From: a virus
Virus record (IMG/VR): IMGVR_UViG_3300012347_000391
Coordinates: 1-64,000 of that record
Reading direction: 5' to 3' (one strand)
DNA length: 64,000 nucleotides
In this document: positions 10,223-35,073 of the stretch, one piece after another
Layout: every line of letters begins with the position of its first letter
How positions within the stretch are numbered: the first letter of the stretch is position 1
The notes under the pieces: model-generated
Database searches by the model: none
Told to the model about the DNA's origin: nothing
Seen by the model: only the letters and a program-made list of their open reading frames with translations
Made by a program: the position numbers and the translations under genes

Positions 10223-10238
10223 AAACAATTAAATAAAC

Positions 10239-11282: not shown

Positions 11283-11291
11283 ATAAATATA

Positions 11292-11579: not shown

Positions 11580-11591
11580 AAAACAACTATA

Positions 11592-12466: not shown

Positions 12467-12470
12467 TTTT

Positions 12471-13482: not shown

Positions 13483-13484
13483 AT

Positions 13485-14079: not shown

Positions 14080-14084
14080 CAATT

Positions 14085-14594: not shown

Positions 14595-14596
14595 TT

Positions 14597-14806: not shown

Positions 14807-14810
14807 GATT

Positions 14811-15035
14811 ATGGTAAGATTTCATTGTTTAACAAGTGAGTTTAGTAAATATATTTTACTAAAAGATTATGGAGATACTACTTATTTTGTAGTTTTACAT
14901 TTATGTAAGACAGATACTTTTGTTAAAGTAGATAGAAGAATAAAGTCTAAAGATGATTTTATTAAATTGTATGGTTTTCAAGCAAAATATACAGAGGAAG
15001 AGATGAATAAAGCTTTAATTCATAAATTTAAATAG
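14811..15035 (+). CDS. Hypothetical small protein
   Basis: Tightly packed co-oriented ORF. Confidence 0.45.
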   Translation: MVRFHCLTSEFSKYILLKDYGDTTYFVVLHLCKTDTFVKVDRRIKSKDDFIKLYGFQAKYTEEEMNKALIHKFK

Positions 15036-18400: not shown

Positions 18401-20242
18401 AAGATGTGATTGATATTGATTACCAGTTTGTCCTATTACAAAATCTACTCTTCCTTCTTGGCCTGAATTATGAGAAACTAAAAACTCAAAAGGGTTATTT
18501 CTCTTTTCAAAAATACTATAATGGGCCTTTACTGCATCAGATAGTGCATCAAAACTAGTAACTCCATGTATATCCATAAGATAAGTCTTCTCATTAGATA
18601 TAGTTAACATGAAATCTTCTAAACTTTCTTTTTGATTATCAACAAGTTTATTATAATTATGTTGTCCAATTTTGTTAATTAATTCTTGTTTATATATTAA
18701 AGACTCTGCCGGATTAAAGAATCTATTAAAGTATGCAAAATCAGGATTATTGATTATCTCTGGTAATTTACCTATTTCAATAAAATCTGTCTTATCCTTT
18801 AACCAATTATACTTATTAATTAAAGTTTTATTTACTGCTTCAAAATCTTTTATCTTCCAAGCTTCAGACATTTCTTCAGAATTAGTTCTCATAAAAGAAC
18901 TAACATCTTTAAACCATTTACCTGAAAATTTATTAATTAATTTATCTGTCTTATTACCTCTATCTGTTTTTTGATAGAATAAATCATAAGACACTTCCGA
19001 AGTTAGTTTATTAATTGGTCCAAAACTTACTCCATAGCCTTTATTTAAAAGTTTAGTTTTAACTCTACCTTGTATATCATTAATCTCTTGAATGAATTTG
19101 GCTGCTTGAGGTTTAACTCTATTTCTAGTGTTTTCTAGTTCTAATCTAATTAATTGAGCAATAGCACTATCTTGTCCTCCAAATTCTTTATCTACTGTAG
19201 CAAATAACATAGAAGCAATACCTATATCTGATTTAGCAGATAATAGTTTCTCTCTAATCTCTTCTAATTGTAAATCAGGGTAAAGACCTTTTAAATTCTC
19301 AGACTCTCCAATAGCTTGTAATAGATATTGTCTTTTAGCTGAATCTACTTTAGTCTTTTGGTCAGATATTTTTTGTCTTAAATTATTAAGAACATCTAAT
19401 ATTTCAGGTTCTATATTACTAGAATCTCCTGTTTGTACAAATTGATTAAGATGATTAGTTGTACTATAATTAGATATAATATCAAAATAATTAATCATAG
19501 TCTCTGCATATTGAATATTCTCAACAGTAGGTACATCTGATTCTAGTAACTTATCTATATAATCTAAATCTGTGTTAAAAACAGATAATGTTTTACTATA
19601 AATATCTTCTGCATTTGTAAGGTCAAATATCTCTTGTTCTAAAGTTTCTTTAAGTTTATTTAATTCACTTATAGTAACTCTTAAGTCTGTATTTTTATTA
19701 AACTTTCTATTGGCTACAGAATTATTTAATCTATTATTAACAGATTGAAGTAAGTTCTTTTTATGATTAATATAGTCATTATAATTAGTAGCATTATAAT
19801 CTATAGAAGAAGGCATAAATACAAAATCATTTTCTGCAGCTTGTATTGCTGCTTGCATATCTTCCATAGAAGAATAAACTTCTCCTTGAAAAACATAATC
19901 TCTTGTTATTGATTGTACAGTAGGAGTCTCATCTACTTTGTTTTGTTCAGTCATTGAATTAGCTAACTTCTTAGTAGGATGTATGCTAATTTCTACTCCA
20001 GAGCTTAACTGAGTAAAAGAAATAACATTACCATAAGTCTTAGCATTATACTCTTTATTATACTTAGTTTGTAATGCTTTAGCTTTACCATACAAAACAT
20101 TCTTATTAGGATTGTTTGCATCATAAGGAATCAAAATAGCTAATCTATCTTGATAACTTGTTCTTTTAGCAGTAGGATAAGAAGAGATAAGTTGTTTACC
20201 TATCTCTTCTCTTATATCTTTTTGACTTACTGTACATGCCAT
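15461..20242 (-). CDS. Giant virion/ejection-associated protein (1593 aa) with internal hydrophobic Gly-rich segments
   Basis: Last gene of the giant-gene block. Contains TALGLGIGITSTMTLGLGLGGITLLGLAAYSY and VVGLLWLTLGKVLI. No enzymatic motif recognised. Confidence 0.5.
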   Translation of the reverse strand: MACTVSQKDIREEIGKQLISSYPTAKRTSYQDRLAILIPYDANNPNKNVLYGKAKALQTKYNKEYNAKTYGNVISFTQLSSGVEISIHPTKKLANSMTEQNKVDETPTVQSITRDYVFQGEVYSSMEDMQAAIQAAENDFVFMPSSIDYNATNYNDYINHKKNLLQSVNNRLNNSVANRKFNKNTDLRVTISELNKLKETLEQEIFDLTNAEDIYSKTLSVFNTDLDYIDKLLESDVPTVENIQYAETMINYFDIISNYSTTNHLNQFVQTGDSSNIEPEILDVLNNLRQKISDQKTKVDSAKRQYLLQAIGESENLKGLYPDLQLEEIREKLLSAKSDIGIASMLFATVDKEFGGQDSAIAQLIRLELENTRNRVKPQAAKFIQEINDIQGRVKTKLLNKGYGVSFGPINKLTSEVSYDLFYQKTDRGNKTDKLINKFSGKWFKDVSSFMRTNSEEMSEAWKIKDFEAVNKTLINKYNWLKDKTDFIEIGKLPEIINNPDFAYFNRFFNPAESLIYKQELINKIGQHNYNKLVDNQKESLEDFMLTISNEKTYLMDIHGVTSFDALSDAVKAHYSIFEKRNNPFEFLVSHNSGQEGRVDFVIGQTGNQYQSHLKYNSFIPKQEVTTYNMNGDSRTEDSGYFDANFSEIENDVDLLKFWEILAEATQYMNSTLSDSKTTLSHNSLLKMSKGMTDTLLDKKLGVMNKTTSLLADTGQTIKDMMSTNIRDTKANDITEVNKAGIETIQQEVSKRYDVFEMEFKRVSKIDNLSKINPLVLNQEAQDLLERLTGLNIVDITKAYGSKINIPFVAKEVLTNQVMEEQTFNLPVMMRAYLDVVSEYKAQKEALPKINIYKDLYDTVQLEKKEVKSGVYAEIKGVANRVLLKQREYGLQDKRVRGQLRTQSWINKNVKGVEDKDHWGKMGKNLNVGEKAYKEEAEKYIAYLEQKIEETTDNDKAVALQYEIDGVKHQIDNLGTTYTWASIYNTLINRFGIFLGLGWNVPSQFFNRFQGWYQGMINDTGRYWTAGNFYAANAFINRKGIRYIPGMNKYRNEVKKAKLLTEKMGYIQDNTNELDRARRESGFTGWTRKLNPFYLTEYTEWHNQVPQALAILMDSSIMSTSVNAQGNQISVPIFDGHTQSFPAYNIVDGELVLKPEFRTPENIETWENFNSNTYADVKSKITDTIALLNGDYSKTGSTYIKNFTLGKSLMMFKTWMPNQYFLRFAKNQNSISLGLKDFDGSYAGALSNKKTNIASTTALGLGIGITSTMTLGLGLGGITLLGLAAYSYKMNKSNKNVDGESLQALTQLSAIGKAILKKSIGLPINIVSGKNLIQAHQFNELNITDADRQNLSFIVNEVVGLLWLTLGKVLIKSLMGDDDEKEPKTLDGQTPNPYWAQKEIDDFYYNVLENSITRLIEDASLFTNAQGLYSAIAKPAGIDSWFTRITQVSSGLQKKLVTDDDTLETGENAGESKFWTSVGKMTMPSLFNEWAGGDFKSFGFNKYGEREWKPGELMDAAFWSDYKKDLKSLKSDRAEAKEELTKYWNKEYDIDNQDPAVKVLLEEEIKRKVKAELDATYSLKIRSLYDEEQKEIK

Positions 20243-20246: not shown

Positions 20247-23200
20247 TTAACAATTTTTAATTTCAGGTAATCTTAAATTTGGACTTAAACTAACAGAGTT
20301 CTCATCAGGAGTATCTTGAGAAGGGTCACTCTTTAATGAGTTATAGTACTCTTCTTCTGCCAAGTCTCTCTCCATAATCATCCTTTCTAGTTCAGAATCC
20401 TTACGAATTTCAGGAATATCAAAGGTAACATTTTCTTTTCTAAGTTTAGATTCTTCTGTAATAAAATTAAGAATTTCACTTAATGAGGCTTCAGCAATAC
20501 TTCCTTTTGTAATTTCCGGGTTTAGTGAAGATAAGATTTTAATTATCACTTCTTTGAATTTGTCCCAAATACTTTGAGTTTCATTAAAAGGTTGCTTAGA
20601 CATTTCAGTTTGAAAAACAGGACTTTCCATAGCTACACTCACAAATTCAAAAATATCCATAGCTCCATAGGCCATATCTAAATCTTCTGCTGTAAGAGTA
20701 TGTGGTAATTTATTTTTAAAATTACTTTTATTCTCTTGAACTCTTGTTAAAGTTTCTACAGGTAAAGATTGTTTAAAAGCTTGCCAAACAGAATCTAAAG
20801 CTTTAACATGAGCTGGAGCATTCTCTGATAGTACTAAACCATCTGCATCATAGTACTTATCTAATTCTCTTTTAGTAATAGAATGTATAGCTTCGTGTAT
20901 AAATACTCTAGCTGTAGATTCTCCTCCTTTTACTTGATTAGAATCAATAATTATCTTGTTTTTAGTTTTATCATACAATCCTCTTGCACCTGCTCCTCCT
21001 ATTAATAATGTAGTATCTTCTACACTAACAACTGTATTAAGGTCTAACATAGGTAATATAGAATCAGCTATAAGAGAAAGATGTTTATAGTTTTCAAATT
21101 TAGTATTTTTTATTTTAGTAATTATTTGCTCTACAGTTTCTCCTTGTTTAATAAAACTTGTTTCACTTGTAAAAGTTAAAGTAGAATTATTATCAGGATT
21201 TATATTTTCTATAGGTGCAATTTTAGTTCCTAAGATAGAAGAAGCATTTGTATTACCAAATTCATATTCATTCATACCACTTGTACCTAATATACTAACT
21301 CTTTGAAACTGATTTGCCCCTATATTTTCATAAAGTTTATATTTATCTTGTTTAAGTTTGCTTTTAGGATTAGCTCCTCTCATTACAATAAATTTAGGTT
21401 TCTCTTCATCATTAAGAATAAAAGAATCTTTAGCTGCATCTAAATAACTAAATTTTTTATCATCTGCATATCTAGTTGCTCTTTCAGGATTATGTTGCAT
21501 AAACTGTTTAACAAAGGTATGAGTTCTTGTAGAGTTAATACCATTTAAATTTGAAATACCTAATACATCTCTAAATACCATAGGATTTCTACCTATACTC
21601 ATTCTTTGAAACATTTCATTAGCAGATACAAATCTACCATTTAATTGCACACCTACTTCTGATAAGTATTCAACAGGAACATATTTAATAAACTGAATAG
21701 CTTCTTGTACACCACCTTCTACATAAGCATAGGTAATTAACTCTTGTGCTAATGTTTTAGTAGACATAGGTTCTCCATTCCAATCAGGAAGAGGTTTATC
21801 TTCTATAATCATTTCAGCTAAAGAGTTGTATAAATACTCTTCATCAAAGTTATCACTAACAGTATTGTTAAATTTAATTAAAGAAGGTGTTCCATTTGTT
21901 TGTAACTCATAAGTAAACTTACTTAATAATCTATTATTTTTAATAATAAGATTCTCTTGTAAGTTATTCATATAACTAGCTAAAGAGGAACTAGTACTTT
22001 TATCTATAAATAATCTATCTCTTTCTGTAGAAGCCATATCTCCAAATACTCCTAGTCCTCTCCAAGAATAGATGTATTTTTTAGCTTCTTGAATTACTTC
22101 TTGTCTAGCTTCTATAGTCTTATAAGCACTAGTAGTGTCTACATTAGTAATTAAAAGAGCTTCATTTACAGCTTCATTAAAGAATCTATCATTATAAGGA
22201 AAAAATTGTCCCCATAAGTTTTGACCAGTAACTAAACCATTAACTACTATTTGTCCTTGAGGAGTAGTAGGTTTAATGTAATAATCTCCAACTACTTCAT
22301 ATCCTTCAGGTCTTTTGATACTTTCTTCAATAGGAACAAAAATACCTATTAATTCTGTAACATTACCTACTGTTTTATTGTCTGCAAATGTTTTTAAATT
22401 ATCATAAGTAATATTAGATTCAATAATAGATTTACCTAAGTTATTAGTATTAAGTAATGATTGAACTTTACCTATATTCTTAGCATAAATATTTAAGTCA
22501 AGAAACTTCTGCAGTACTGCAGCTTGAATTTTACCATCTTGACCATTGTATTTAATACCATCAATAAAAGCTTGACCAGTTAATTCACTATCTATTTCTA
22601 ATAATTGCCCTTCTTTATCTGTAATTTCATAAGAATTACCTACTTTAATAGCTATATAATTTCCATTAGTATATTGTTTTACTAATTCTTTTATAGTATC
22701 TTCTTCTAAATCTTTAGAAAAATCTGAAGTAATACCTCTTCCTGCATCTAATTTTTTAGTATATTCTTTTAAGATAGGTTGAGATAAAAACATATAAGGT
22801 ATAGAATTACCATTTTCATCTTGGTCAAAACCTAATAAAGTAAGTAATGAATCTACTCCGATAGTAGTTTTATTAATATTAACTCTACCTAAAATTTGAG
22901 CTTTTTCATTATCTGTTGCAGTATTTTGTTTTTCTGCAAAAGCTTCTGCTATACTTCTTTTACCATCAAGAGTAAGTTCTTTACCTATATATCCATCAGA
23001 AGTAATTTTACCTATAGTAATATGTTTACTATCTTTTACATAATTAGTTTCTTGATTTGTAAATGTTCTTTCTGCTTCATTTTTAGGATTCTCATTAGAT
23101 AAATATAAAGGTGTAGCTACTTGTTGAGTAAGTCCATGAAAAGTTACATAGTTAGAGTAGATACCAATAGCCATTTTCCCTGCTGAACCTAAAGCCATCT

Positions 23201-26200
23201 TTTGCTTTTGATACTCATCAGATAGAATAGTAAAACTATTATTAGCTGTAGTTGCACCAGCATTAGCTACAACTGCAGTATCTCCATTGGCTAACATCTC
23301 TTTAGCTATAAGGTCTTTTCTAGCCTCCTCATTTAATCCTTCAATAAAATCAGCTTGTTCTTCTGCAAATTGCATAGATAAAACTTTGTTGATTTTCTTT
23401 TGAACTTCAGGATTAGAGTTATTATATATAGCTAAATGAGATTTAATGAAAGCATTCTCCATAAGTTTCTCATCAAACTTAGCTTCAATCATATTAATCT
23501 TATTTGTATAATCAGTTCCACTATCTTGTAATTCAGACACAAACTCATCATCAAAATTTAATCTGATGATTTCATCAAACACACTCATAGAAGGAAGTCC
23601 TAATTCAGAAGAAAACATTGCATTCTCTTTAGCTAGAAGTTCTCTCAATCTTCTAGTAGCATCTTGTTTATGAGCCTCTGTAAGAGGAGTTATTTTACCT
23701 GTTTTATGGTCAACTACATAATTCATTTGATAAGTAGTTTCCTTATCAACATCATAATCAAGACCTTTTTGTTTAGTAAAGTTCTTAGGTACAATCATTA
23801 AATCTCCAACTTCAGGAGGTAAGAAACCTGCAATCTCAATAGTTGCCCCAGATACGTGTGAAGAGGTAGGGGTACGAAAACTAAATTGATTTAGAAGCTC
23901 AGGAGCTATCATTCCATCTTTTAATCTCCAAGTACCGTTCTCTCTCTTTTCAATATAAGTGTATTCTCCTTCTTTCTTTTCAAACATATCGATAAGAATC
24001 TTATCACTTATTTTGAATTTAGAAGGTATAAATACTTGTGCTTTAGAGAAAGTACCTTCATTATCATTAACACCTTTTAACTCTTTACCATTCCAACCAT
24101 CCATATAGATAATTCTAGATTGGTCAATACCTACCAAAGATTCTTGGAAACCAAATCCAGTTTCAGAACCTACTACAAAGGCACTTCCGGGGATTTTATG
24201 TTTCATTAATCTATTAGTAACTATACTATTTAATAAGGACTCATAGCGGTTAGAATTAGTAGATAGCCAAAGAGGAATTTTGAACTCATAGTATGGCTGT
24301 CCTTTTACATCATAAAGTGTATCTAATTCAAGACCTTTAATATCTTGAATAGGATAGTCTCTTTTGATAGCTTCTTTTTCTAATAATTTTTGTAACTTAG
24401 TTATGAATTGAGCTTCATTTGTAATATCTCCATCATCAGATAAACCTAGTTCTCTGAATAAGTTTACTTTTTTAATATTAACTAGCTTCTCAAATGAATC
24501 ACTATAGTATTGATTAAGTTGATGTCCATTCATTTCTTGACCATCAACATTAAAACCATCAAGACTCATCATACCATCTCCCATAAGTAATTTAAAGATT
24601 TGAGTTCCCATGGAAACTTTCTCTGCTTTACTATCAGATTTATAAGGTACATCTTGTTGTATTCTAAAATCATTTCTACTTAATCTTAACATAGATTTAT
24701 CAGCATTAGCTAAACTAACACTATTATAAGGGTCAACTGTATTAGTAAGACCTCCTACTTTATTAGCAGTTTGATAAGAAGCTCTAACAGAAGTTCCATA
24801 TTGGTTCTCCATTTCTTCCATTCTAATTCTTAAAGCATCTAATTTAGTACCTGCAGTTAATTGAGGTATTAAAGGAAAAGAAGAAGATTTAATATATACT
24901 ACTCTAGATACATCTTGAGCTTTATCTACAACTTGAGAAGTAACTACAGGTTTAATAGGTTGAAATACTAATCCTAATTCTTCTTTTTCAAGATGTTGAT
25001 TTCTTAATAATTTATCAGATATTATCCTAGACTGTTCTGCACTAATTCTACCTAGTGATTCTAAAATAATTAAGTGTTCACTTAAAGTAGTGTACTCTTG
25101 AGCATCTGTTGCATCTATATCAAAATAATCTGTAATATCACTAAACATAGCTTTCAATTTATTTCTTTCAGATATAAATCCGGCTACATTACCATTAGCT
25201 TTATCTTCATAGTATTTATCAAGAATAGGTTGAGCTTTATCTAAACCTTCTTGACCGTGATACAATTTAATTAAGTAGTCAGAGTTAGAAGCTATGTCTT
25301 TATCTTCTGCTGTATCATCTCTTAAGAAAATTTGTAAGTAATCTTGATTAGCAGAATTAGCAATAGTAACTCCCGGAGCAATCATTAAAGCTAACCTTTT
25401 ACCAATATTAGTTCCCATTTTCTTAGAAGCATTAATAAAGAAATTATCATCTTCCACATCAAAAGGTATTTCATTACCTTTAAATAGTTTGTTTTGAGAA
25501 TATAAAGCAGGGTCTCCAGATAACATAGTAAAAGCATTAGTATTACTTATCATATAGTTTAATACATAATCGTAAGTACCAATTTGAAATTTATCTTCTA
25601 AAGAACCTTGTCCTGTATTTACATACTTAGCATCAAACAAAGGTAAAGCTGTAACTTCTCCTTTACTATTAGTTTGAGTAAAAGTAGGTCTCCACAACTC
25701 CATCTTTTCTTTAGCTAAGTTATGTACTACTTCTTCTAGTACATCCATGATAGCAGGTTTAAAGATACTTTCAATATTTTCTAAAGTAGCTTTATCTCCT
25801 ACAGCAATATGTTTAATCATTCTAACTCCGTTTTCATCTTTAATATTATTTAAAGCAGGAATAAAATTAAACATTTGTGCAGCTAAATCATAACCTACAA
25901 TATTAGTTTTCTTAATATTGTTATGAAAGTTCATAATTCTTTTTAGTTCAGGTAAAGCAAGTTGATTATAAAGTAACTCTCTTAAATCTTCTGTAAAAGA
26001 TATAGTAGAGTTAGTCTTATTAAAAGCTTGATTACTTTCTGACATAAAGTTAAATATTCCTGTAGCTAACATAACCATTTGTTTCTTATCAGACATAGTA
26101 GGCATAAACATTCTACCTATTCTCATAGAGAAACCATTCTTTTTATGTGTAAGAGTTTCTTGCTGTGTATCTTGAATACCTGTTAATTTAACTATATCAT

Positions 26201-29200
26201 GGTCAATATCATTTAAATCTCTAATTCCTGAAAAACTATTACTTTTTTTACCAAACTCTTTAAAAGCAGTTAATCCTAAATAATTTACTTCAAACTTATT
26301 AACAAATTCAGGGTCCTTTCTAAGTAACTCTATAATCAAACTATCTTGAGAGATAGATAATGAACCTAAATCATCAATAAGTTTTGAATCAGTTAAAGCA
26401 CTTCTTTTTAAATCATCAATTCTATTAGTTAAATAATTAGGTACAGTAACTCCTGATACATTTTTACCTGCATCTCTAAAAGACTTACTCATTGTTTTAG
26501 GGGTGAATCGAGCCTCACCTGTAGATAAAGCTTTTATTACATTATTCATATCCCCAAAAGGATGGTCTAATTTATTCTCTTTAAAATTAGTTGTATCTTT
26601 TTCAAGTATATTATTAAGATATTTGAAAAGACCTCCAATAAAAGTATTACTTCCAGAAAACATTAAATTATAAGGGATTAATTTTTTATTGTAAAAACCA
26701 ATCTCTTTTAATTCTTTAAAATGTTTATCAGCTAATACTATACCAAAATTAGCTAACCAAGTTTTTACTTCAATATCTGATACATTAGCTTTATCAGTTC
26801 CCCAACTTTTATATTGTTCTAGTAATTGTTTAGCAACATCTTTATTAATACTATTATCAGCATTAGCTAAAGGAGATATTTTAAAATTATTATTCCAAGT
26901 ATTTATAATAACTCTTTTTATTTCATTAGCATTAGTATCATAAACTTGTAGTTGTGTTTCTGTACCTCCTGTAGTGTACATAGCAAATTTCATACTTAAA
27001 GCATGTTTTCTATAGTTAGTTACAAATTCATTTTTAATTTGCAAATCTGCACTATCTAATTTTTTTATAAATTGTTTAACCCAAGGATAGGCCACTTCCA
27101 TAGAAGCAATCTTAGAACTCATTATTTTATAATCAGATTCTATATATACTCCTGTACCTAATAATTGATATAAGGTGTCGAATACTTCATTAAATCCTAC
27201 ATATTCAGGTAAGCCTAAAAAACCTTTCTTAGTAGAAAAATCATCATTTAACTTCTCAATACCTGCCATAAATCTTCTTAATCTATAAGTAGTTTTTTGT
27301 TTACCACTTTCTGTCAAAGAAGAATCATCATCAAAAGAAGATGTTCTTTCTGAATTGTCTTGTTCATTTTGGTCTTCTTCATCATTTACCTTAGCTTCTT
27401 CTTTAATGTCAGAAGTTTTATTAACTTTTAACATAGCTTTTTCTAAGATACTTAATTGTCCATTATAAACTTCTCCTTTAGTCTCTACTGTACTTTGAAC
27501 ATCTTTAGCTGACCAATAATCTTTAATATTACTAAAAACATTTAACATAGCATTAGCATCTGAAATAGCAGAAACTACTCTCTCATCTTGGCTATTTAAA
27601 CTTTGTAGTTTAGTAAAGAAAGCTTCTGTACTTTTTTGAGAAGGTGCAACTATAACATTATAAGTTCTATCTAATTCTTCTACTAATTTCTTAGTACTGA
27701 TTTTACTTTTGTATTTAATATCAATAGCAGAAGATATGTAATTGTATATAAAATCAATTATGTGGCCCTCCTGAGAAATAGTTAACCCCGGAATAGTATT
27801 AAGAATGTTTTTTAGATTTTCTATTCCCATCATAGGAACAGGAGATTGAGAAAAATTACTATCTGTAAAGCCTAAAGTATTTCTTAAGTTATAGAAATCA
27901 TTTAGTATAGTATCTACATCTTCTACTATACCTATCTCTTCTCTAGCTGCTTCCATAGCTTCTGCCACTCTTTCTACTCTCTCTTGTGGAACAGCTTCTT
28001 CTATTTGATTAGCATCATAAGTAAAAGTAATAGTAGGTTGTGCAGAAGTAATATAATTAGGCCTCTCCTCTGTTCCAATGTTAAAAGATTTAACATCAGT
28101 CATTAAATTATTCTTTAGATATTCAGAATAATTTACTCCTAAATCTTGAACAATACCATTTTCAATATCTACCATACCACTATTTCTCAACAAACCTTCA
28201 TTTAAAGTATGTTGAGAGAAACTAGATATAGGTTGATTATATAAAGTTCTACCAAAGTTAGATAAAGCATCTCCATTTTTAGGCTGTACATATAGCTTCA
28301 TAAAAGCTTGAGCATCTTTCCAATTTTTTAAATTGTAGCCTGTTATCCTTTTAATATCATCTATTATTTTATTAGCTTGCTCTTCTGTTACTTCATATTT
28401 AGTACCTTTTACATTCTTAGCATATATATCTCTAGCAGGATAACTAGTAACTTTATCTTTAGTATATGTATCATCATTTACTCTAGCGTAAGCTGCCCAT
28501 GCCCATTTAACAGTTTCAAGTTGTTTTTCACTAGCATATCTAATTACCTTAAAAGCTCTCCAAGTTTCTTTACCATCAACAGGGTCAGTACCTATTCTTC
28601 TTAAGTTCCAAGTATGACCTGCTCCTCCTGTTTCAATAATATCTTTTCTATTGATAATCTTACGATTACCTTTAGATTCAAAAGTTTTTCTAGTTCCTTG
28701 TTCTAAATCTCCTTGGTCAACTTGTATAGCAATCTCTGCTTGAGGATTAGCTTCATTAACAGTCATTAAAGGAATAAGGTCTCCATTACTATCTTTCCTA
28801 TTAGCAATAGTATAGAAAGCTCCTTCTTTTTTATCTTTAATAGTAAGTTCTCTCAAATTACCATTAACAATTTGATTTCTTAATGTAGATACATTTGATT
28901 TACCCTCTTGTATCAGTTTAATATGAGAAGGGGTAATTTTGTTAGTATCAATTGTACCACTACCTTTTGTAGGGTCTGCCACATTGAATACATTATACCA
29001 ATTTATATCATGAATATATGCTACAGGAGTACTTCCTTCAAAAACAAAGATTGGTACAATGTCATTAAAATCTTTTGTTTGTCTAAAATTAGGGTCAAGA
29101 ACTTCTTTTTCACTAACTATTTCAGCAAAAGTTTTTACAATAGCTTTTCCATGCTCATCTCTACTAACTACAGATTTGATTTTATCCCAAGAACTTTCAG

Positions 29201-32200
29201 GGGCAACTCTAACATTAACTTTAGTTCCCGGTAAAAACTTATCAGGATGTAATAAAGGTCTAAAATCTATCAATGAACCTTCTTCAAGATTCAATTGTCC
29301 TGTCATAGCAGTTTGTCTTTTCCATACCCCTTCTTCATCTTCAATCTCTTCATAAGCTATGGCATTATATCCTAACTTACCTTCAACTTCTAATGTTCTA
29401 TTTCCTCCAATAGCTTTCACAGGAATATTTTCTTCTGTAAAAGCAACTATAGGAGTTTCTTTATTTTCTATAGCAGCTTCTTGCTCTAAAGTATTTATAG
29501 CTAAATCTTCAGAAGTATTCACTGCAGTCTCTGTCTCTATATTTGTAAATAAACCTCTAATAGTATCTAAGGCATTTTCTGTAATTTTCTTAGCAGGGTC
29601 AAAGATAGTATTATAGACATCATTAAAATTAGTATCTTCATACTCATTTAATATCCAACCTAGTTTATAAGCATCAAATTGTGATTCAGCTTGGTCTTCA
29701 GGAATAAAATTAAGCAAATGATAAACTAATTCTTGAAAAGAAGGTTTGTGGCCCTTAACTTTAGTAAGTATATCAAATACATTCTTTATAGCTTGTTTAG
29801 TACTTTGTTTTTTAGGTTCATCAAATTCTTCTACAGATAAAGGTAAAGGAGAATAGTCATCAGGATTATAATCTGCAAATGGGTCATCATTTTGTGCACT
29901 TACACTATTAGGATTTATAGTATTATCTAAGATAACTTCAGCCTCTCCTCTAATAGATTGTTGTATTTCATTTTCAGAGACATCATAAGGTTCAGTATCT
30001 TGTGTTTGTACTGTAGGGTCTCCTTCTATATCTTGAGGTTCTGCAAGAATAGCTTCTTGTTTAACTTGTTCTAGAGTATCATAAAGAGTATTTATCCTAT
30101 CTACCTCATCAAGTTGTCTTTGAATTTTACCAACACCATTAAAATCAAGGAAAGTATTTTTAATTTTTTCTATGTCTTCTTTTTCAAGACCAGTTTTATC
30201 TGCATTAAAAAATGCAATCTCTATATCTTGATTAGTTACTACAGAGCTTCCTGTCTCTTCTGCTTTCTGTTGTAATAAAGCATTTATCTGTTTATTGAAT
30301 TTAGCTAGTCTAGTTTGATTAGCCAAGTAAGTTGGAGCAGTTGCTTTATTAAAAGCTTTCATTACACTATTTTGTGCAAATTCTAAATTACTCTTAGCAA
30401 TAAGAAGATTAGCGTAGGTTTCAACGGCAGGGAGTTTTGCATTATCTACACTTTGTAAAAAGGAATCATAAGCCGCTTTTTCAGTTGAGTCAGTAATTTC
30501 TTTATCAAATAAAGTTGACATAGAAAAATCAATACCTTTTGTTAAGCCAGACAATTCTAGCTCTTCTTTAGCTAGGAGTGCTTGAGTTCCTATTTCATTA
30601 TTAAGAGCTTCTATACTTTGTTTATTAGTTATTTTATCAGAAGCTAAAGATATAATCTCTCCTAAATTAGGTGCATTTTGATACTTATTATAAGTTTTAC
30701 GTAAAGCTTCTATCTTACCTTTAGCTAAAGTAATATTAGATATTGTATCTGCACTTATAGGATTAGTATTAAATCCCCAAGTTCCTTTAGTAGCATTAGA
30801 TTCTAATGTAGTTAAAGCTTCTTCAAACTCATCTAATGTACCTGTTTGCATAGCTTTAACAGCTAAACTATAGAACTTCTTTTGTTCCATAGCATTTGCT
30901 GCTTGTGGCTTATTATCTTGTTTTAACTTAGCAATCTGATTGTCATATTCTGCTATAGAAAAGCCTGTTCCACCTGTAGACATAACAATATGATGAGCTA
31001 AATCATCTTCTGAAATAGCACTATCAATAGCTCTATAAGTTCTTCTTATAGAATCTCTTTTAATTGTAAGGTCAATATTCTTTTCTAAATTTCTTAGTTG
31101 ATTAACAGACCCCATTACAACAGGAACACCTCCCATAAGTAAAGTTTGTGCTACAACATCTGCATAAAAAGTAGGATTAGTAAGTTCTTCTAATTGGTCT
31201 TGAAAATCTTTATTAATAGTTGGAGTAGCTTGTACAGCTATCTCTTCCATAATCTCTGCAGGAACTCCATTCCATAGTTTACCTACTCCAGTATGCTGTA
31301 CAGCTTTACTAGAGATTTTACCTACCATACTATTATTAAAAAGATTACTACCTTTTTTATTTAGATTTGAAATAGATTTTATACCATTTCCTAATTTAGT
31401 TCCGGCTAATTTCTTAGTAATATACCCACTTACCTTATTACTTAATTTTTGGAAACCTTCTCCAACAAATTTTTCTGAAGCGTACTCTTTAGCTGTTTCT
31501 GTATAACCATATAATAAAGATTCTCCAATAGATTTACTACGAATACTGTTAAACTCTTTATCTAAATTATGTATATCATTAGATATGTTAGATAATTCTT
31601 GTTCTTCTTCCTCACTTCTATTTGTTTTTTTAAGTAAGTCTTTCTCTCTTAATTCTAAATTTATCTTAGCTGTTTCATAATCTCTTCTAAAAGCTTTTTC
31701 TATAGAGTCTCTGACAAGTATTTTATCTTCTCCATTCTCGTCTTTAACTAATTGAGTGATTCCTATTTGGTCTGTAGCAAAATTAGAAAAAGTAGAAGGT
31801 GCTATTGCAGAAGCTGCAGCAACCTCTACAACAGAAGGTAATATCTTAAAAGCACCTCTAGCTGCTCCTAATGTTAATCTTCTAGCTAAAGTTCTTTCTA
31901 CAGTATTGTTTATGGCAGCTTTTAATAGTTGTTTAGTACCTTGTTGTGCAGTACCTTTAGCTGCTCCTCCAACTCCTCCTGTAAGTATCATACCTTCCAT
32001 AAATACAAGAGATTTACCAGTACCATCTCCGGTACGATACCAAAATCTGTCTTTTGCAAGGTCAAGGTTATCTGTTTCTTGTTTCTTATTATAAGATTTA
32101 AGAACTTCTTGTTCTACTTCATCAAGGTTATCCCAACCAACTTCATCAGACTTTCTAGCAATAGCTGCTGTCTGTAAATCTTCTATAGTACTAATTATAC

Positions 32201-33008
32201 CTACACTTTTAAGGTCTCTACTATTATTTAGTAAACCATCCCATACAGTATTCTTACCAGTAAGATAGTCATTAACTTTCTTCTGATTCTCTACATCATA
32301 TCTTAAAGATATTTTTAATCTATTGATTTTAAAAGCTAAATCTTTCTCTTGTGTATCTTCTCCTCCAAAAGAACCATTTACTCTAGCTAAAGCTATTTGA
32401 TTATGTTGTTGTTCTAATTCCTCTAGTTGTTTTTGTTTAGCAGGAATAGTCACAGAAAACTCTTTTGCATTATCTATAAGAACAGGTCTTACATCTCTTA
32501 ATTGCTCTTTATTAAGTTTTTTAAATTCTTTCTCTTGAGCTTTTGATTTACCCCAATCAGATTTATCATCTGATAAAGCATCATGTAACCAATAAGCCGG
32601 AGCAAATATGTTTATTCCATTATCATCTATTAGGTCTGTATTCTTAGCACCTAAAGTTTTAAGCTTTTCTTGTCTTTCTTTGTAGTTCAGAAATTTATTA
32701 TCATCTGCTAATTTTTCTTTTAACTTAGATTCAATTTCAGTTTGAGGCTCAAGCAGACCTTCTTTACGTGTTTGCTCTGCCTCTTGTTTTTCTCTAAATG
32801 CTTGAGCCTCTTGATTCTTTTGTTGAATAACCTCATCAAAAGAGCCACCAGAGACTATAGCCTTCTGATATTGAGTCTTAGATGTAGATGTAGCTCCTGT
32901 ATGGTCTGTTAATTGAACACTTTGAGGGATAGAACTTGGACTATTTTCTCCTACACTTTCTAACTCATCAAATAAAGATTTAGCTTTCTCTTTTTTAGGC
33001 TGTTCCAT
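20247..33008 (-). CDS. Giant polyprotein (4253 aa): crAss-like virion RNA polymerase (DPBB) region plus C-terminal zincin-like HExxH domain
   Basis: FRTPTSSHVSGATIEIAGF...QKGLDYDVDKE (nt about 23740-23906; DYDVD at 23745-23759) mirrors the beta-prime motif NRQPSLHRMS...NADFDGD. HEAIH lies at nt 20883-20897 (residues about 4038-4042). Confidence 0.65.
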   Translation of the reverse strand: MEQPKKEKAKSLFDELESVGENSPSSIPQSVQLTDHTGATSTSKTQYQKAIVSGGSFDEVIQQKNQEAQAFREKQEAEQTRKEGLLEPQTEIESKLKEKLADDNKFLNYKERQEKLKTLGAKNTDLIDDNGINIFAPAYWLHDALSDDKSDWGKSKAQEKEFKKLNKEQLRDVRPVLIDNAKEFSVTIPAKQKQLEELEQQHNQIALARVNGSFGGEDTQEKDLAFKINRLKISLRYDVENQKKVNDYLTGKNTVWDGLLNNSRDLKSVGIISTIEDLQTAAIARKSDEVGWDNLDEVEQEVLKSYNKKQETDNLDLAKDRFWYRTGDGTGKSLVFMEGMILTGGVGGAAKGTAQQGTKQLLKAAINNTVERTLARRLTLGAARGAFKILPSVVEVAAASAIAPSTFSNFATDQIGITQLVKDENGEDKILVRDSIEKAFRRDYETAKINLELREKDLLKKTNRSEEEEQELSNISNDIHNLDKEFNSIRSKSIGESLLYGYTETAKEYASEKFVGEGFQKLSNKVSGYITKKLAGTKLGNGIKSISNLNKKGSNLFNNSMVGKISSKAVQHTGVGKLWNGVPAEIMEEIAVQATPTINKDFQDQLEELTNPTFYADVVAQTLLMGGVPVVMGSVNQLRNLEKNIDLTIKRDSIRRTYRAIDSAISEDDLAHHIVMSTGGTGFSIAEYDNQIAKLKQDNKPQAANAMEQKKFYSLAVKAMQTGTLDEFEEALTTLESNATKGTWGFNTNPISADTISNITLAKGKIEALRKTYNKYQNAPNLGEIISLASDKITNKQSIEALNNEIGTQALLAKEELELSGLTKGIDFSMSTLFDKEITDSTEKAAYDSFLQSVDNAKLPAVETYANLLIAKSNLEFAQNSVMKAFNKATAPTYLANQTRLAKFNKQINALLQQKAEETGSSVVTNQDIEIAFFNADKTGLEKEDIEKIKNTFLDFNGVGKIQRQLDEVDRINTLYDTLEQVKQEAILAEPQDIEGDPTVQTQDTEPYDVSENEIQQSIRGEAEVILDNTINPNSVSAQNDDPFADYNPDDYSPLPLSVEEFDEPKKQSTKQAIKNVFDILTKVKGHKPSFQELVYHLLNFIPEDQAESQFDAYKLGWILNEYEDTNFNDVYNTIFDPAKKITENALDTIRGLFTNIETETAVNTSEDLAINTLEQEAAIENKETPIVAFTEENIPVKAIGGNRTLEVEGKLGYNAIAYEEIEDEEGVWKRQTAMTGQLNLEEGSLIDFRPLLHPDKFLPGTKVNVRVAPESSWDKIKSVVSRDEHGKAIVKTFAEIVSEKEVLDPNFRQTKDFNDIVPIFVFEGSTPVAYIHDINWYNVFNVADPTKGSGTIDTNKITPSHIKLIQEGKSNVSTLRNQIVNGNLRELTIKDKKEGAFYTIANRKDSNGDLIPLMTVNEANPQAEIAIQVDQGDLEQGTRKTFESKGNRKIINRKDIIETGGAGHTWNLRRIGTDPVDGKETWRAFKVIRYASEKQLETVKWAWAAYARVNDDTYTKDKVTSYPARDIYAKNVKGTKYEVTEEQANKIIDDIKRITGYNLKNWKDAQAFMKLYVQPKNGDALSNFGRTLYNQPISSFSQHTLNEGLLRNSGMVDIENGIVQDLGVNYSEYLKNNLMTDVKSFNIGTEERPNYITSAQPTITFTYDANQIEEAVPQERVERVAEAMEAAREEIGIVEDVDTILNDFYNLRNTLGFTDSNFSQSPVPMMGIENLKNILNTIPGLTISQEGHIIDFIYNYISSAIDIKYKSKISTKKLVEELDRTYNVIVAPSQKSTEAFFTKLQSLNSQDERVVSAISDANAMLNVFSNIKDYWSAKDVQSTVETKGEVYNGQLSILEKAMLKVNKTSDIKEEAKVNDEEDQNEQDNSERTSSFDDDSSLTESGKQKTTYRLRRFMAGIEKLNDDFSTKKGFLGLPEYVGFNEVFDTLYQLLGTGVYIESDYKIMSSKIASMEVAYPWVKQFIKKLDSADLQIKNEFVTNYRKHALSMKFAMYTTGGTETQLQVYDTNANEIKRVIINTWNNNFKISPLANADNSINKDVAKQLLEQYKSWGTDKANVSDIEVKTWLANFGIVLADKHFKELKEIGFYNKKLIPYNLMFSGSNTFIGGLFKYLNNILEKDTTNFKENKLDHPFGDMNNVIKALSTGEARFTPKTMSKSFRDAGKNVSGVTVPNYLTNRIDDLKRSALTDSKLIDDLGSLSISQDSLIIELLRKDPEFVNKFEVNYLGLTAFKEFGKKSNSFSGIRDLNDIDHDIVKLTGIQDTQQETLTHKKNGFSMRIGRMFMPTMSDKKQMVMLATGIFNFMSESNQAFNKTNSTISFTEDLRELLYNQLALPELKRIMNFHNNIKKTNIVGYDLAAQMFNFIPALNNIKDENGVRMIKHIAVGDKATLENIESIFKPAIMDVLEEVVHNLAKEKMELWRPTFTQTNSKGEVTALPLFDAKYVNTGQGSLEDKFQIGTYDYVLNYMISNTNAFTMLSGDPALYSQNKLFKGNEIPFDVEDDNFFINASKKMGTNIGKRLALMIAPGVTIANSANQDYLQIFLRDDTAEDKDIASNSDYLIKLYHGQEGLDKAQPILDKYYEDKANGNVAGFISERNKLKAMFSDITDYFDIDATDAQEYTTLSEHLIILESLGRISAEQSRIISDKLLRNQHLEKEELGLVFQPIKPVVTSQVVDKAQDVSRVVYIKSSSFPLIPQLTAGTKLDALRIRMEEMENQYGTSVRASYQTANKVGGLTNTVDPYNSVSLANADKSMLRLSRNDFRIQQDVPYKSDSKAEKVSMGTQIFKLLMGDGMMSLDGFNVDGQEMNGHQLNQYYSDSFEKLVNIKKVNLFRELGLSDDGDITNEAQFITKLQKLLEKEAIKRDYPIQDIKGLELDTLYDVKGQPYYEFKIPLWLSTNSNRYESLLNSIVTNRLMKHKIPGSAFVVGSETGFGFQESLVGIDQSRIIYMDGWNGKELKGVNDNEGTFSKAQVFIPSKFKISDKILIDMFEKKEGEYTYIEKRENGTWRLKDGMIAPELLNQFSFRTPTSSHVSGATIEIAGFLPPEVGDLMIVPKNFTKQKGLDYDVDKETTYQMNYVVDHKTGKITPLTEAHKQDATRRLRELLAKENAMFSSELGLPSMSVFDEIIRLNFDDEFVSELQDSGTDYTNKINMIEAKFDEKLMENAFIKSHLAIYNNSNPEVQKKINKVLSMQFAEEQADFIEGLNEEARKDLIAKEMLANGDTAVVANAGATTANNSFTILSDEYQKQKMALGSAGKMAIGIYSNYVTFHGLTQQVATPLYLSNENPKNEAERTFTNQETNYVKDSKHITIGKITSDGYIGKELTLDGKRSIAEAFAEKQNTATDNEKAQILGRVNINKTTIGVDSLLTLLGFDQDENGNSIPYMFLSQPILKEYTKKLDAGRGITSDFSKDLEEDTIKELVKQYTNGNYIAIKVGNSYEITDKEGQLLEIDSELTGQAFIDGIKYNGQDGKIQAAVLQKFLDLNIYAKNIGKVQSLLNTNNLGKSIIESNITYDNLKTFADNKTVGNVTELIGIFVPIEESIKRPEGYEVVGDYYIKPTTPQGQIVVNGLVTGQNLWGQFFPYNDRFFNEAVNEALLITNVDTTSAYKTIEARQEVIQEAKKYIYSWRGLGVFGDMASTERDRLFIDKSTSSSLASYMNNLQENLIIKNNRLLSKFTYELQTNGTPSLIKFNNTVSDNFDEEYLYNSLAEMIIEDKPLPDWNGEPMSTKTLAQELITYAYVEGGVQEAIQFIKYVPVEYLSEVGVQLNGRFVSANEMFQRMSIGRNPMVFRDVLGISNLNGINSTRTHTFVKQFMQHNPERATRYADDKKFSYLDAAKDSFILNDEEKPKFIVMRGANPKSKLKQDKYKLYENIGANQFQRVSILGTSGMNEYEFGNTNASSILGTKIAPIENINPDNNSTLTFTSETSFIKQGETVEQIITKIKNTKFENYKHLSLIADSILPMLDLNTVVSVEDTTLLIGGAGARGLYDKTKNKIIIDSNQVKGGESTARVFIHEAIHSITKRELDKYYDADGLVLSENAPAHVKALDSVWQAFKQSLPVETLTRVQENKSNFKNKLPHTLTAEDLDMAYGAMDIFEFVSVAMESPVFQTEMSKQPFNETQSIWDKFKEVIIKILSSLNPEITKGSIAEASLSEILNFITEESKLRKENVTFDIPEIRKDSELERMIMERDLAEEEYYNSLKSDPSQDTPDENSVSLSPNLRLPEIKNC

Positions 33009-35072: not shown

Positions 35073-35073
35073 C

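What the first reader, a model, noticed from the sequence alone, without database searches (positions are those of the whole stretch)
20247..33008. 4253-aa polyprotein combining a beta-prime-like DPBB RNA polymerase centre with roughly 2900 aa of unassigned N-terminal sequence
Seen in sequence: FRTPTSSHVSG...IVPKNFTKQKGLDYDVDKE (nt about 23740-23906) parallels the universal beta-prime active-site segment NRQPSLHRMS...NADFDGD, including the metal-binding DxDxD.

Established knowledge: crAss-like phages, for example Cellulophaga phage phi14:2 gp66, package a giant single-chain two-barrel RNAP. That enzyme is related to eukaryotic RNAi RdRPs and is injected to transcribe early genes.

This protein is about twice that size. 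The catalytic motif sits at about residue 3084, so the preceding roughly 2900 residues and the flanking giant ORFs have no assigned function. They may hold further injected effector domains (the polyvalent-protein concept).
Basis: partly seen in the sequence, partly recalled or inferred. Interest (0 to 1): 0.7.

Follow-up and report, generated by a model that had tools for sequence, protein, structure and literature searches.

The report
Giant fused crAss-like virion RNA polymerase
This 4253-residue gene is the packaged, injected RNA polymerase of a crAss-like phage, made by fusing three neighbouring virion-protein genes. That is a known arrangement, but its single cysteine at the very end belongs to an apparently undescribed pattern that may link the injected proteins head to tail.

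Summary
The ORF (20247-33008, minus strand, 4253 aa) and the FRTPTSSH...DYDVD motif (aa 3044-3088) are real.

An AlphaFold model of aa 2451-3650 matches the phi14:2 virion RNA polymerase crystal structure (6VR4) at E 8e-31, then QDE-1. The RNA polymerase reading is therefore correct.

The "2900 unassigned residues" are overstated:
- Aa ~1640-3900 are collinear with phi14:2 gp66. The second (beta-like) barrel lies at aa 2683-2780.
- Aa 525-1029 match phi14:2 gp67, the upstream virion protein.
- Aa 3901-4253 are an HExxH domain homologous to the N-terminus of phi14:2 gp65.

The protein is thus a fusion of the gp67-gp66-gp65 block. That fusion is already noted in the literature and is shared with Flavobacterium phage FpV4 (4287 aa) and 60 metagenomic cluster representatives. 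It is a new member of a known kind.

One thing was unexpected. The protein has a single cysteine, its last residue, and the next ORF has a single cysteine at residue 3. The same "-C | C-" pairs flank most cargo-gene junctions in phi14:2, crAss001 and metagenomic relatives. This suggests that cargo proteins are joined head to tail. I found no report of it in the three papers I checked.

The parts
20247..33008 (-). Complete ORF, 4253 aa plus stop: fused virion (cargo) RNA polymerase protein
   Evidence: PHROG 16227 'virion structural protein', E = 0. A single BLASTP HSP covers aa 52-4253 against the FpV4 4287-aa protein at 36% identity.
28089..33008 (-). N-terminal module, aa 1 to about 1640, in the position of phi14:2 gp67. 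Aa 1-330 are highly charged. Moderately hydrophobic segments lie at aa 334-352, 385-403 and 614-632.
   Evidence: 108 cluster representatives match aa 500-1699. The boundary is inferred from gp66 aa 114 aligning with window aa 1751. Hydrophobic peaks. The AF2 model is confident only for aa ~690-970, 1060-1150 and 1200-1670. No PDB fold match.
29922..31436 (-). Aa 525-1029: stretch with demonstrable homology to phi14:2 gp67 (GenBank gp078) aa 307-806
   Evidence: The family HMM scores 23.4 bits. The maximum over 1000 block shuffles plus the reversed sequence is -6.7 bits.
31242..31256 (-). Family-invariant E585-x-x-E588-E589 motif (AEIMEEIAVQ); role unknown
   Evidence: 100% conserved in 60 sequences. 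Invariant in A3.
21309..28088 (-). RNA polymerase module, aa about 1641 to about 3900, collinear with phi14:2 gp66 (2180 aa)
   Evidence: Profiles hit gp66 aa 114-363, 222-1020 and 951-1802, and weakly 1987-2152. In relative L005 this stretch is split into 1199-, 710- and 303-aa ORFs.
24669..24962 (-). First (beta-like) double-psi beta-barrel, aa 2683-2780 (QPIKPV, YIKSSS, ANKVGG, up to RIQQDVP)
   Evidence: Aligns with gp66 aa 1009-1095, just before the gp66 Connector at 1095-1238. The region is beta-rich in the AF2 model. K2686, K2707, R2742 and K2750 are nearly invariant (numbering +2450).
24174..24668 (-). Connector between the barrels, aa 2781-2945
   Evidence: Offset mapping to the gp66 Connector at 1095-1238. 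Relatives split the polymerase here: P0020-31 end at about aa 2856-2894 and P0028 starts at about aa 2869.
23709..24173 (-). Second (beta-prime-like) double-psi beta-barrel, aa 2946-3100
   Evidence: AF2 strands plus alignment to gp66 aa ~1240-1378.
23745..23759 (-). Catalytic DYDVD, aa 3084-3088
   Evidence: Aligned with DFDID 1361-1365 of gp66, in which each Asp is essential in vitro.
23121..23219 (-). Long helix, aa 3264-3296, at the position expected for the bridge helix (inferred)
   Evidence: AF2 helix 814-846 of the model. The gp66 bridge helix at 1529-1559 plus an offset of about 1723 gives window aa 3252-3282. Not verified by superposition.
20250..21308 (-). C-terminal HExxH (zincin-like) domain, aa 3901-4253. 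HEAIH is at aa 4038-4042 (nt 20883-20897). Invariant Y4114 and E4121-F4122 (nt 20643-20648).
   Evidence: Invariant H, E, H, Y and EF in A5. The profile hits phi14:2 gp65 aa 127-399, including HEIMH and YG.TNVHEF. It also hits PDB 9sfn_G 'internal virion protein' at E 6e-4. Pfam gives only a sub-threshold hit, DUF6782 at E 0.021.
20250..20252 (-). TGT codon for Cys4253, the only cysteine in the protein and its last residue
   Evidence: 55 of 60 family representatives have a Cys in the last 4 residues and all 60 within the last 9. 45 of 60 have no other Cys.
15461..20242 (-). Downstream cargo ORF, 1593 aa, starting 4 nt after the stop. Its only cysteine is residue 3 (MAC..., TGT at nt 20234-20236).
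   Evidence: 29% identical to the FpV4 1596-aa protein, which also starts MAC. Homologous to the L005 1067-aa ORF and weakly to crAss001 Gp49.
33039..36507 (-). Two upstream small cargo-block ORFs (677 aa and 477 aa), cysteine-poor (0 and 1 Cys)
   Evidence: Homologous to FpV4 732- and 598-aa ORFs. The 677-aa ORF weakly matches phi14:2 gp079. Cys counts.
36531..42041 (-). Muzzle protein (1836 aa, 17 Cys), which marks the crAss-type tail and the start of the cargo block
   Evidence: Pfam crAss_MUZ PF25731, E 2.9e-25.

Best explanation
The ORF encodes the virion-packaged, host-injected RNA polymerase of a crAss-like podophage. The phage is related to the Flavobacterium psychrophilum FpV4 group but is itself unsequenced.

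The protein is a single-chain fusion of three modules that phi14:2 encodes as adjacent genes:
1. A gp67-like N-terminal module, aa 1 to about 1640. It has charged and moderately hydrophobic helices and no recognisable enzyme.
2. A gp66-like two-barrel RNA polymerase, aa about 1641 to about 3900. It comprises a beta-like barrel (2683-2780), a connector, and a beta-prime-like barrel (2946-3100) carrying the Mg-binding DYDVD.
3. A gp65-N-like HExxH domain, aa 3901-4253.

Shown here: the homologies, the fold, the module map and the synteny.

Inferred from phi14:2 and crAss001: the protein is packed in the capsid, is extruded N to C in a partly unfolded state through the tail and muzzle ahead of the DNA, refolds in the cytoplasm, and transcribes the oppositely oriented early (replication) genes at nt 1-15000.

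Its near-total lack of cysteine fits passage through the oxidising periplasm.

I further propose (inference) that the lone C-terminal Cys4253 pairs with Cys3 of the next cargo protein, probably by a disulfide formed in the virion. The whole cargo set would then leave as one thread. The fusion would be the peptide-bond equivalent of the Cys-Cys junctions seen in phages whose modules are encoded separately.
For: Fold:
- AF2 of aa 2451-3650 gives pLDDT 81 and pTM 0.80.
- Foldseek best hit is 6vr4_A at E 7.9e-31, probability 1.0, over 1197 columns. Next come QDE-1 at E 1.8e-3 and then Pol II, vaccinia and bacterial beta-prime chains.

Sequence:
- BLASTP aligns aa 2628-3101 with gp66 aa 955-1378.
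- Profiles hit gp66 aa 222-1020 (135 bits) and 951-1802 (212 bits), and gp65 aa 127-354 (33 + 23 bits).
- The N-module profile hits gp67 aa 307-806 at 23.4 bits, against at most -6.7 bits in shuffles.
- The catalytic block is conserved.

Architecture:
- The protein is collinear end to end with the FpV4 4287-aa protein.
- 60 cluster representatives of 3809-4938 aa exist. 58 have D[FY]D[IV]D and 49 have a downstream HExxH.
- Relative L005 encodes the same content as six collinear ORFs.

Context:
- TerL, portal, major capsid protein, muzzle and then the cargo block lie on the minus strand. Replication genes lie on the plus strand.

Literature:
- gp66 is packaged, is rifampicin-resistant and transcribes early genes. 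Fused polyproteins are noted.
- crAss001 gp47, gp49 and gp50 are cargo proteins, and ejection involves partial unfolding.

Cysteine:
- The protein has 1 Cys where about 36 are expected.
- '-C | C-' pairs occur at junctions in the window, FpV4, phi14:2 (two junctions), crAss001, cr128_1, Rudgehvirus and L005-L010.
- 27 of 32 ORFs of at least 1000 aa carry a terminal Cys. Among 137 smaller ORFs, 4 have an N-terminal Cys and 15 a C-terminal Cys.
- Cysteine suppression in ejected proteins is known for N4 and DEV.
- Structural disulfides exist in the crAss001 virion.
Against: - There are no virion proteomics, transcription or activity data for this phage. Packaging and ejection rest on homologues at 23-47% identity.
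- phmmer of the whole protein against PDB sequences finds nothing. Homology to gp66 needs BLAST on the core, profiles, or the fold.
- The link between the N-module and gp67 covers only about 500 of 1640 residues.
- The bridge helix and trigger loop were placed by offset only.
- The Cys-pair idea has exceptions. The L010 1890 | 1087 junction and the L005 internal junctions lack the pair, and crAss002 gp33 lacks an N-terminal Cys.
- No structure or mass spectrometry shows a bond. Disulfides would have to form after packaging.
Confidence: 0.8

Rival explanations
1. It is a true polyprotein. After assembly or after ejection, the chain is cut into gp67-like, RNA-polymerase and HExxH pieces, possibly by its own zincin-like domain, and only the freed polymerase is active.
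For: - Drobysheva et al. suggest that fused forms are 'likely cleaved' and that the gp65 zincin-like domain may activate the polymerase.
- The modules are separate ORFs in phi14:2 and L005.
- Poorly conserved acidic stretches lie at aa ~950-1050 and 1801-1900.
Against: - No conserved cleavage motif was found at the module borders.
- The low-identity stretch at aa 1801-1900 does not coincide with an ORF border in L005.
- Where modules are split, the termini carry paired cysteines, as if continuity were being restored.
- The HExxH domain also resembles a domain of ejection proteins of other podophages, which may point to an envelope-related rather than a self-processing role.
Confidence: 0.3
2. 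This is the first reader's idea: the N-terminal ~1600-2900 residues are a polyvalent protein carrying further injected effector enzymes.
For: - BFVD gives weak fold hits to crAss proteins named 'ART-PolyVal-like domain-containing' (E 0.013) and 'Large polyvalent protein associated domain' (E 0.027).
- The invariant E585/E588/E589, P1319 and R1377 could be functional residues.
Against: - Pfam finds nothing on the whole protein or on 450-aa pieces.
- Foldseek of the N-module model against the PDB gives best E 0.56.
- Aa 1751-3084 belong to the polymerase itself.
- The weak BFVD names belong to multi-domain giants and need not describe the aligned part.
Confidence: 0.1
3. The DxDxD is coincidental, or the protein is a degenerate, non-catalytic structural or tape-measure-like protein.
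For: - The databases annotate it only as 'structural protein'.
- D.D.D occurs twice in the ORF.
Against: - The fold match to 6VR4 is E 7.9e-31.
- All three Asp, the R.P motif and the barrel-1 lysines are conserved across the family.
Confidence: 0.02

Closest known systems
Cellulophaga phage phi14:2 gp66 virion RNA polymerase (PDB 6VR4), with its neighbours gp67 and gp65
   Same: - Two DPBB barrels in one chain with a connector between them.
- A D[FY]D[IV]D motif with Val or Ile at position 4.
- The same order of modules: gp67-like, polymerase, HExxH.
- Cysteine-poor, with terminal cysteines.
- The same genome layout.
   Different: - Here the three genes (the third only in its N-terminal ~350 aa) are one ORF.
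- Identity in the core is about 23%.
- The rest of gp65 corresponds by position to the separate 1593-aa ORF. Homology for that part was not shown.
Flavobacterium phage FpV4 / Fpv1-21 4287-aa 'putative structural protein' (ALN97145, genus Fipvunavirus)
   Same: - The same fused architecture, collinear from aa 52 to the end.
- DYDID and HEVIH at the equivalent places.
- A single C-terminal Cys.
- The next ORF starts MAC.
- The same flanking ORFs.
   Different: - Only 36% identical overall (22-69% per 100 aa).
- DNA similarity is limited to about 1.3 kb at 71%, so this is a different phage.
- The FpV4 protein is not annotated as a polymerase.
Bacteroides phages crAss001 (gp47, gp49, gp50), crAss002 (gp32, and gp33 at 4245 aa) and Rudgehvirus (4098 aa)
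   Same: - Giant cargo proteins carrying the same polymerase core.
- crAss001 Gp50 aligns over aa 2628-3417.
- An HExxH domain is present.
- Terminal cysteines are present.
   Different: - The modules are cut and ordered differently. The HExxH domain lies in the protein that precedes the polymerase (crAss001 Gp47 C-terminus, crAss002 gp32).
- In crAss001 the genes lie on two strands.
Neurospora QDE-1 and cellular multisubunit RNA polymerases
   Same: A two-barrel catalytic core. QDE-1 is the second-best fold hit (E 1.8e-3).
   Different: Similarity outside the core is negligible. There is no virion or ejection context.
N4 gp50 and DEV gp71 giant virion RNA polymerases (Schitoviridae)
   Same: They work alike. 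Each is a ~3400-aa cysteine-free protein packaged and ejected with helper proteins, with N-terminal membrane-associated parts, that transcribes early genes.
   Different: The catalytic domain is unrelated (T7-like single-subunit fold). No terminal cysteine is reported for them (they 'lack cysteine').

Membership tests
crAss-like virion two-barrel RNA polymerase (phi14:2 gp66 family) | Sequence homology to gp66 across the catalytic region | tested here: met
   BLASTP E 3e-22. Profiles score 135 and 212 bits against gp66 aa 222-1802.
crAss-like virion two-barrel RNA polymerase (phi14:2 gp66 family) | Two double-psi beta-barrels plus a connector in one chain (fold) | tested here: met
   AF2 pLDDT 81. 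Foldseek to 6vr4_A at E 7.9e-31 and TMq 0.59 over 1197 columns. Barrel 1 at aa 2683-2780 and barrel 2 at aa 2946-3100.
crAss-like virion two-barrel RNA polymerase (phi14:2 gp66 family) | DFDxD-type motif with Ile or Val at position 4 | tested here: met
   DYDVD at aa 3084-3088, aligned with DFDID of gp66.
crAss-like virion two-barrel RNA polymerase (phi14:2 gp66 family) | Bridge helix and trigger loop | tested here: inconclusive
   A 33-residue helix at aa 3264-3296 and a low-confidence loop at aa ~3307-3324 lie where offsets predict them. No residue-level superposition was available.
crAss-like virion two-barrel RNA polymerase (phi14:2 gp66 family) | [quoted passage not shown] | not testable with these tools
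   Known only for phi14:2 and crAss001. The PHROG label 'virion structural protein' is an annotation.
crAss-like virion two-barrel RNA polymerase (phi14:2 gp66 family) | crAss-type genome context (TerL, portal, major capsid protein, muzzle, cargo block, opposed replication module) | tested here: met
Zincin-like metallopeptidase domain of crAss gp65 orthologues | HExxH plus a downstream third ligand | tested here: inconclusive
   HEAIH at aa 4038-4042 is invariant. E4121, in the motif Y...EF, is invariant and is a candidate third ligand. No structure or metal data exist.
Zincin-like metallopeptidase domain of crAss gp65 orthologues | Homology to the gp65 N-terminal domain | tested here: met
   Profile hits to gp65 aa 127-258 and 277-399 at 20 + 21 bits, aligning HExxH and EF.
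Zincin-like metallopeptidase domain of crAss gp65 orthologues | Match to a curated peptidase family above threshold | tested here: not met
   Only Pfam DUF6782 at E 0.021 and 14.5 bits, against a cut-off of 27.
Polyvalent proteins (giant injected multi-effector proteins) | Several recognisable effector enzyme domains in one chain | tested here: not met
   Only the polymerase and the HExxH domain were detected. Pfam and PDB fold searches of the N-module were negative.
Fipvunavirus-like phages (FpV4 group) | Close nucleotide or protein identity to FpV genomes | tested here: not met
   Megablast covers 10% of the ORF at 71%. Protein identity is 36%. It is related but not a member of the genus by these measures.

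The most novel reading that the evidence does not exclude
The terminal cysteines are functional. The cargo proteins of crAss-like phages are joined head to tail (C-terminal Cys of one to Cys 3-6 of the next, by a disulfide or a shared metal) into one ~5400-6300-residue thread. That thread fixes the order of ejection and comes apart in the reducing cytoplasm. Fused giants such as this 4253-aa protein are the same thread made with peptide bonds. Here Cys4253 would link to Cys3 of the 1593-aa ORF.
Probability: 0.35. Interest if true: 0.7.

Novelty: new member of a known kind. Interest (0 to 1): 0.4.

Why it matters
As an annotation, the result turns a 'structural protein' into a mapped three-module injected RNA polymerase. 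It shows that this fused form is common in environmental phages of Bacteroidota (60 cluster representatives).

The wider point is the cysteine pattern. How podophages order and thread several megadaltons of cargo protein through a narrow tail is an open question. Paired terminal cysteines at gene junctions, which disappear exactly where the genes are fused, give a concrete hypothesis. It can be tested with existing phages (phi14:2, FpV4, crAss001).

Tried and rejected
- The search for homologous proteins with the whole 4253-aa query timed out.
- phmmer of the whole protein against PDB sequences found nothing.
- The word-indexed search with aa 1-1200 found nothing. The candidate list was probably swamped by the charged, low-complexity N-terminus. 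The exhaustive search later found 108 relatives.
- An IMG/VR scan with the N-module found nothing.
- tblastn of the N- and C-terminal parts against phage genomes found only FpV phages.
- A two-sequence profile of the N-module did not reach gp67. A 60-sequence profile did.
- Pfam on 450-aa pieces gave nothing above threshold.
- Foldseek of the N-module model against the PDB gave nothing significant. The scattered weak hits to S1/OB-fold proteins and to alpha-pore-forming toxins (probability at most 0.16) were set aside as noise.
- A strict transmembrane-helix scan (Kyte-Doolittle 19-mer above 1.5) found none.
- I considered a nucleotide-level explanation for 'C-stop ... MAC', namely a translational-coupling signal. 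I rejected it because the Cys pair persists across an inserted ferritin-like gene (L005, L006, L010) and between genes on opposite strands (crAss001, cr128_1).
- I considered split inteins and rejected them. The cysteines sit at the very termini with no intein-sized domain.
Full report
OBSERVATION

The minus-strand ORF 20247-33008 is real and encodes 4253 aa. FRTPTSSHVSG begins at aa 3044 and DYDVD occupies aa 3084-3088 (nt 23745-23759). A tri-aspartate pattern alone is weak evidence, because DIDHD also occurs at aa 2267. The surrounding block, however, is conserved with FpV4, phi14:2 gp66 and crAss001 Gp50. It is also present in 58 of 60 full-length relatives.

WHAT THE PHAGE IS

The window has about 30% G+C, with two opposed gene blocks.

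- The minus strand carries TerL, portal, major capsid protein and a crAss-type muzzle protein (Pfam PF25731). A run of giant ORFs follows.
- The plus strand (nt 1-15000) carries a helicase, exonucleases and thymidylate synthase.

This is the crAss-like layout. Megablast finds only about 1.3 kb at 71% identity to Flavobacterium psychrophilum phages. The phage itself is therefore not in the phage collection searched.

THE POLYMERASE

tblastn of aa 2400-3600 hits three groups:

- FpV phages at 47% identity, annotated 'structural protein'.
- crAss001 and its relatives, annotated 'putative RNA polymerase'.
- phi14:2.

BLASTP aligns aa 2628-3101 with aa 955-1378 of the phi14:2 2180-aa protein. That protein is the gp66 of Drobysheva et al. 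Its DFDID at 1361-1365 is essential, and it is packaged and transcribes early genes.

I collected 34 homologues and modelled aa 2451-3650. The model has pLDDT 81.3 and pTM 0.80. Foldseek against the PDB gives:

- 6vr4_A (phi14:2 gp66): E 7.9e-31, probability 1.0, 1197 aligned columns.
- QDE-1: E 1.8e-3.
- Then Pol II Rpb1, vaccinia and bacterial beta-prime chains.

Landmark motifs place the domains as follows:

- The beta-like barrel is at aa 2683-2780, aligned with gp66 aa 1009-1095.
- The connector is at aa 2781-2945.
- The beta-prime-like barrel is at aa 2946-3100.

HOW MUCH IS REALLY UNASSIGNED

Local profiles built from the homologues extend the match to gp66 in both directions.

- A profile of aa 1600-2700 hits gp66 aa 222-1020 at 135 bits.
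- A profile of aa 2600-3700 hits gp66 aa 951-1802 at 212 bits.
- A 60-sequence N-terminal profile aligns gp66 aa 114-363 with window aa 1751-2025.

By extrapolation, gp66 starts near window aa 1640.

THE N-TERMINAL MODULE

An exhaustive HMMER search with aa 500-1699 found 108 cluster representatives. Of these, 60 are 3809-4938 aa long and carry the matching region at the same place.

Their profile hits phi14:2 gp67 (GenBank gp078, the virion protein encoded just upstream of gp66) over aa 307-806. This aligns with window aa 525-1029 at 23.4 bits. The best of 1000 composition-preserving shuffles scored -6.7 bits.

The module has these features:

- Invariant residues E585, E588, E589, P1319, R1377 and Y1627.
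- The three most hydrophobic segments of the protein, at aa 334-352, 385-403 and 614-632. All fall below a strict transmembrane threshold.

An AF2 model of aa 500-1699 reached pLDDT 67.5. It is good for aa ~1200-1670. It has no significant PDB fold match. In BFVD it matches only other phage giants, including the gut crAss-like phage cr108_1. Pfam finds nothing. The biochemical role of this module remains unknown, and no effector enzyme was detected.

THE C-TERMINAL DOMAIN

Aa 3901-4253 contain an invariant HExxH (HEAIH, aa 4038-4042) and an invariant Y...EF (E4121).

- The profile matches the N-terminal region of phi14:2 gp65 (aa 127-399, HEIMH at 245). This is the 'Zincin-like' domain mentioned by Drobysheva et al..
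- It also matches PDB 9sfn_G 'internal virion protein' at E 6e-4.
- It weakly matches the PhiM1 ejection protein gp48, 8vb2_A.
- Pfam gives only a sub-threshold hit, DUF6782.

FUSION

The protein is therefore gp67 + gp66 + the N-terminal part of gp65 in one chain. Four lines of evidence bear on this.

- FpV4 has the same chain (4287 aa; one HSP over aa 52-4253 at 36% identity) and the same neighbours.
- In the metagenomic relative L005 the same content is six collinear ORFs: 1106, 341, 1199, 710, 303 and 1017 aa.
- In another group of relatives the polymerase is split in the connector between the two barrels.
- The literature already notes fused polyproteins and genes 'up to ~6000 aa'. crAss002 gp33 is 4245 aa and the Rudgehvirus orthologue is 4098 aa.

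The size is therefore not unusual for this group. The verdict is a new member of a known kind.

MECHANISM

By homology, the protein is capsid cargo and is extruded partly unfolded through the tail before the DNA (crAss001 model). It then refolds and transcribes the opposed early module, as shown for phi14:2. These steps are inferred here, not shown. Whether the chain is cut is unknown; the self-processing idea is kept as a rival.

THE UNEXPECTED PART: CYSTEINES

The protein has one cysteine in 4253 residues. About 36 would be expected from the other ORFs of the window, which average 0.85% Cys. That one cysteine is the last residue. The next ORF (1593 aa) starts 4 nt after the stop, and its only cysteine is residue 3 (MAC...).

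Among the 60 fused relatives:

- All have a Cys within the last 9 residues, and 55 have it within the last 4.
- 45 have no other Cys.
- None has an N-terminal Cys.

Where the modules are separate genes, the pattern becomes pairs across junctions:

| Genome | Upstream protein | Downstream protein |
|---|---|---|
| phi14:2 | gp67, only Cys is the last residue | gp66, Cys 3 and Cys 2179 of 2180 only |
| phi14:2 | gp66, Cys 2179 of 2180 | gp65, Cys 3 only |
| crAss001 | Gp47, Cys 2339 of 2341 | Gp50, Cys 5 ... Cys 2404 of 2412 |
| crAss001 | Gp50, Cys 2404 of 2412 | Gp49, Cys 5 only |

The same holds in cr128_1, Rudgehvirus, L005, L006, L007, L008, L009 and L010.

The pairs persist across an inserted ferritin-like gene and between genes on opposite strands. 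That argues for a protein-level cause rather than a nucleotide-level one.

As a control, 27 of 32 ORFs of at least 1000 aa in these loci have a terminal Cys. The exceptions are two muzzle proteins, a 1616-aa tail-region ORF, the L010 1890-aa ORF and crAss002 gp33. Among 137 smaller ORFs, 4 have an N-terminal Cys and 15 a C-terminal Cys.

Exceptions to the pairing exist at the L010 1890 | 1087 junction, at the L005 internal junctions and at the crAss002 gp33 N-terminus.

Cysteine avoidance in ejected proteins is known for N4 and DEV. The crAss001 virion contains structural disulfides. I found no mention of terminal cysteines in cargo proteins in the Drobysheva preprint or in Bayfield et al..

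My reading is an inference, at about 0.35 probability. The termini are linked, so the cargo leaves as one thread, and the fused giants are the peptide-bond version of that thread.

SCORES

The finding as submitted is a correct but ordinary identification with an overstated 'unassigned' region. The cysteine pattern raises the interest somewhat because it is cheap to test.

Noticed in passing
window 20250-20252 (Cys4253) and 20234-20236 (Cys3 of the 1593-aa ORF); also L001, L003, L004, L005-L013: Nearly the only cysteines in the giant cargo proteins sit at the extreme termini, and they pair across gene junctions (upstream protein ends in Cys, downstream protein has Cys at residue 3-6). The pattern is seen in the window, FpV4, phi14:2, crAss001, cr128_1, Rudgehvirus and five metagenomic relatives. 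I found no mention of it in the papers searched.
   Followed up: partly
L005 10900-11376, L006 9517-9990, L010 13264-13752: In three relatives whose polymerase is split between the two barrels, a 157-162-aa ferritin/rubrerythrin-like gene (PF00210) sits exactly between the barrel-1 and barrel-2 subunit genes.
   Followed up: no
L005 14408-17461: The HExxH domain (HELTH at residue 249) is fused to a PIF1-type helicase domain in a 1017-aa ORF. In that relative, an injected helicase may travel with the polymerase.
   Followed up: no
L006 10001-15208 (P0028) and L006 19421-21103: The barrel-2 polymerase subunit of one relative carries a homing-endonuclease intein (PF05203, PF05204, PF14528). Its thymidylate synthase ThyX also carries an intein. 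Inteins in crAss-like core genes are known from the literature.
   Followed up: no
window 31242-31256 (aa 585-589), 31800-32009 (aa 334-403), 31113-31169 (aa 614-632): An invariant E-x-x-E-E motif and the three most hydrophobic (but sub-transmembrane) segments of the protein cluster in the N-terminal module. This is reminiscent of the membrane-associated N-terminal part of N4-like virion polymerases.
   Followed up: partly
window 20250-21308 (aa 3901-4253): The profile of the HExxH domain matches PDB 9sfn_G 'internal virion protein' (E 6e-4). It also weakly matches the PhiM1 ejectosome protein gp48 (8vb2_A) over the HExxH and EF motifs. The domain may therefore be shared among ejection proteins of unrelated podophages.
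   Followed up: partly
window 46666-51516 (minus strand): A 1616-aa ORF between the muzzle block and the capsid genes has no PHROG match at E 1e-5. It has only 2 cysteines.
   Followed up: no
L007 16794-16934; L012 7899-8144; L013 24739-25014: Thioredoxin-type genes lie near the cargo or polymerase block in several relatives. They may be unrelated (ribonucleotide reduction), but they are worth noting next to the cysteine pattern.
   Followed up: no
crAss001 Gp47 (L004 23469-30494), crAss002 gp32 (L011 4976-11038): In gut crassviruses the HExxH motif lies near the C-terminus of the protein that precedes the polymerase in the Cys-defined chain. In phi14:2, FpV4 and this window it follows the polymerase. 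The module order appears to be permuted between lineages.
   Followed up: no
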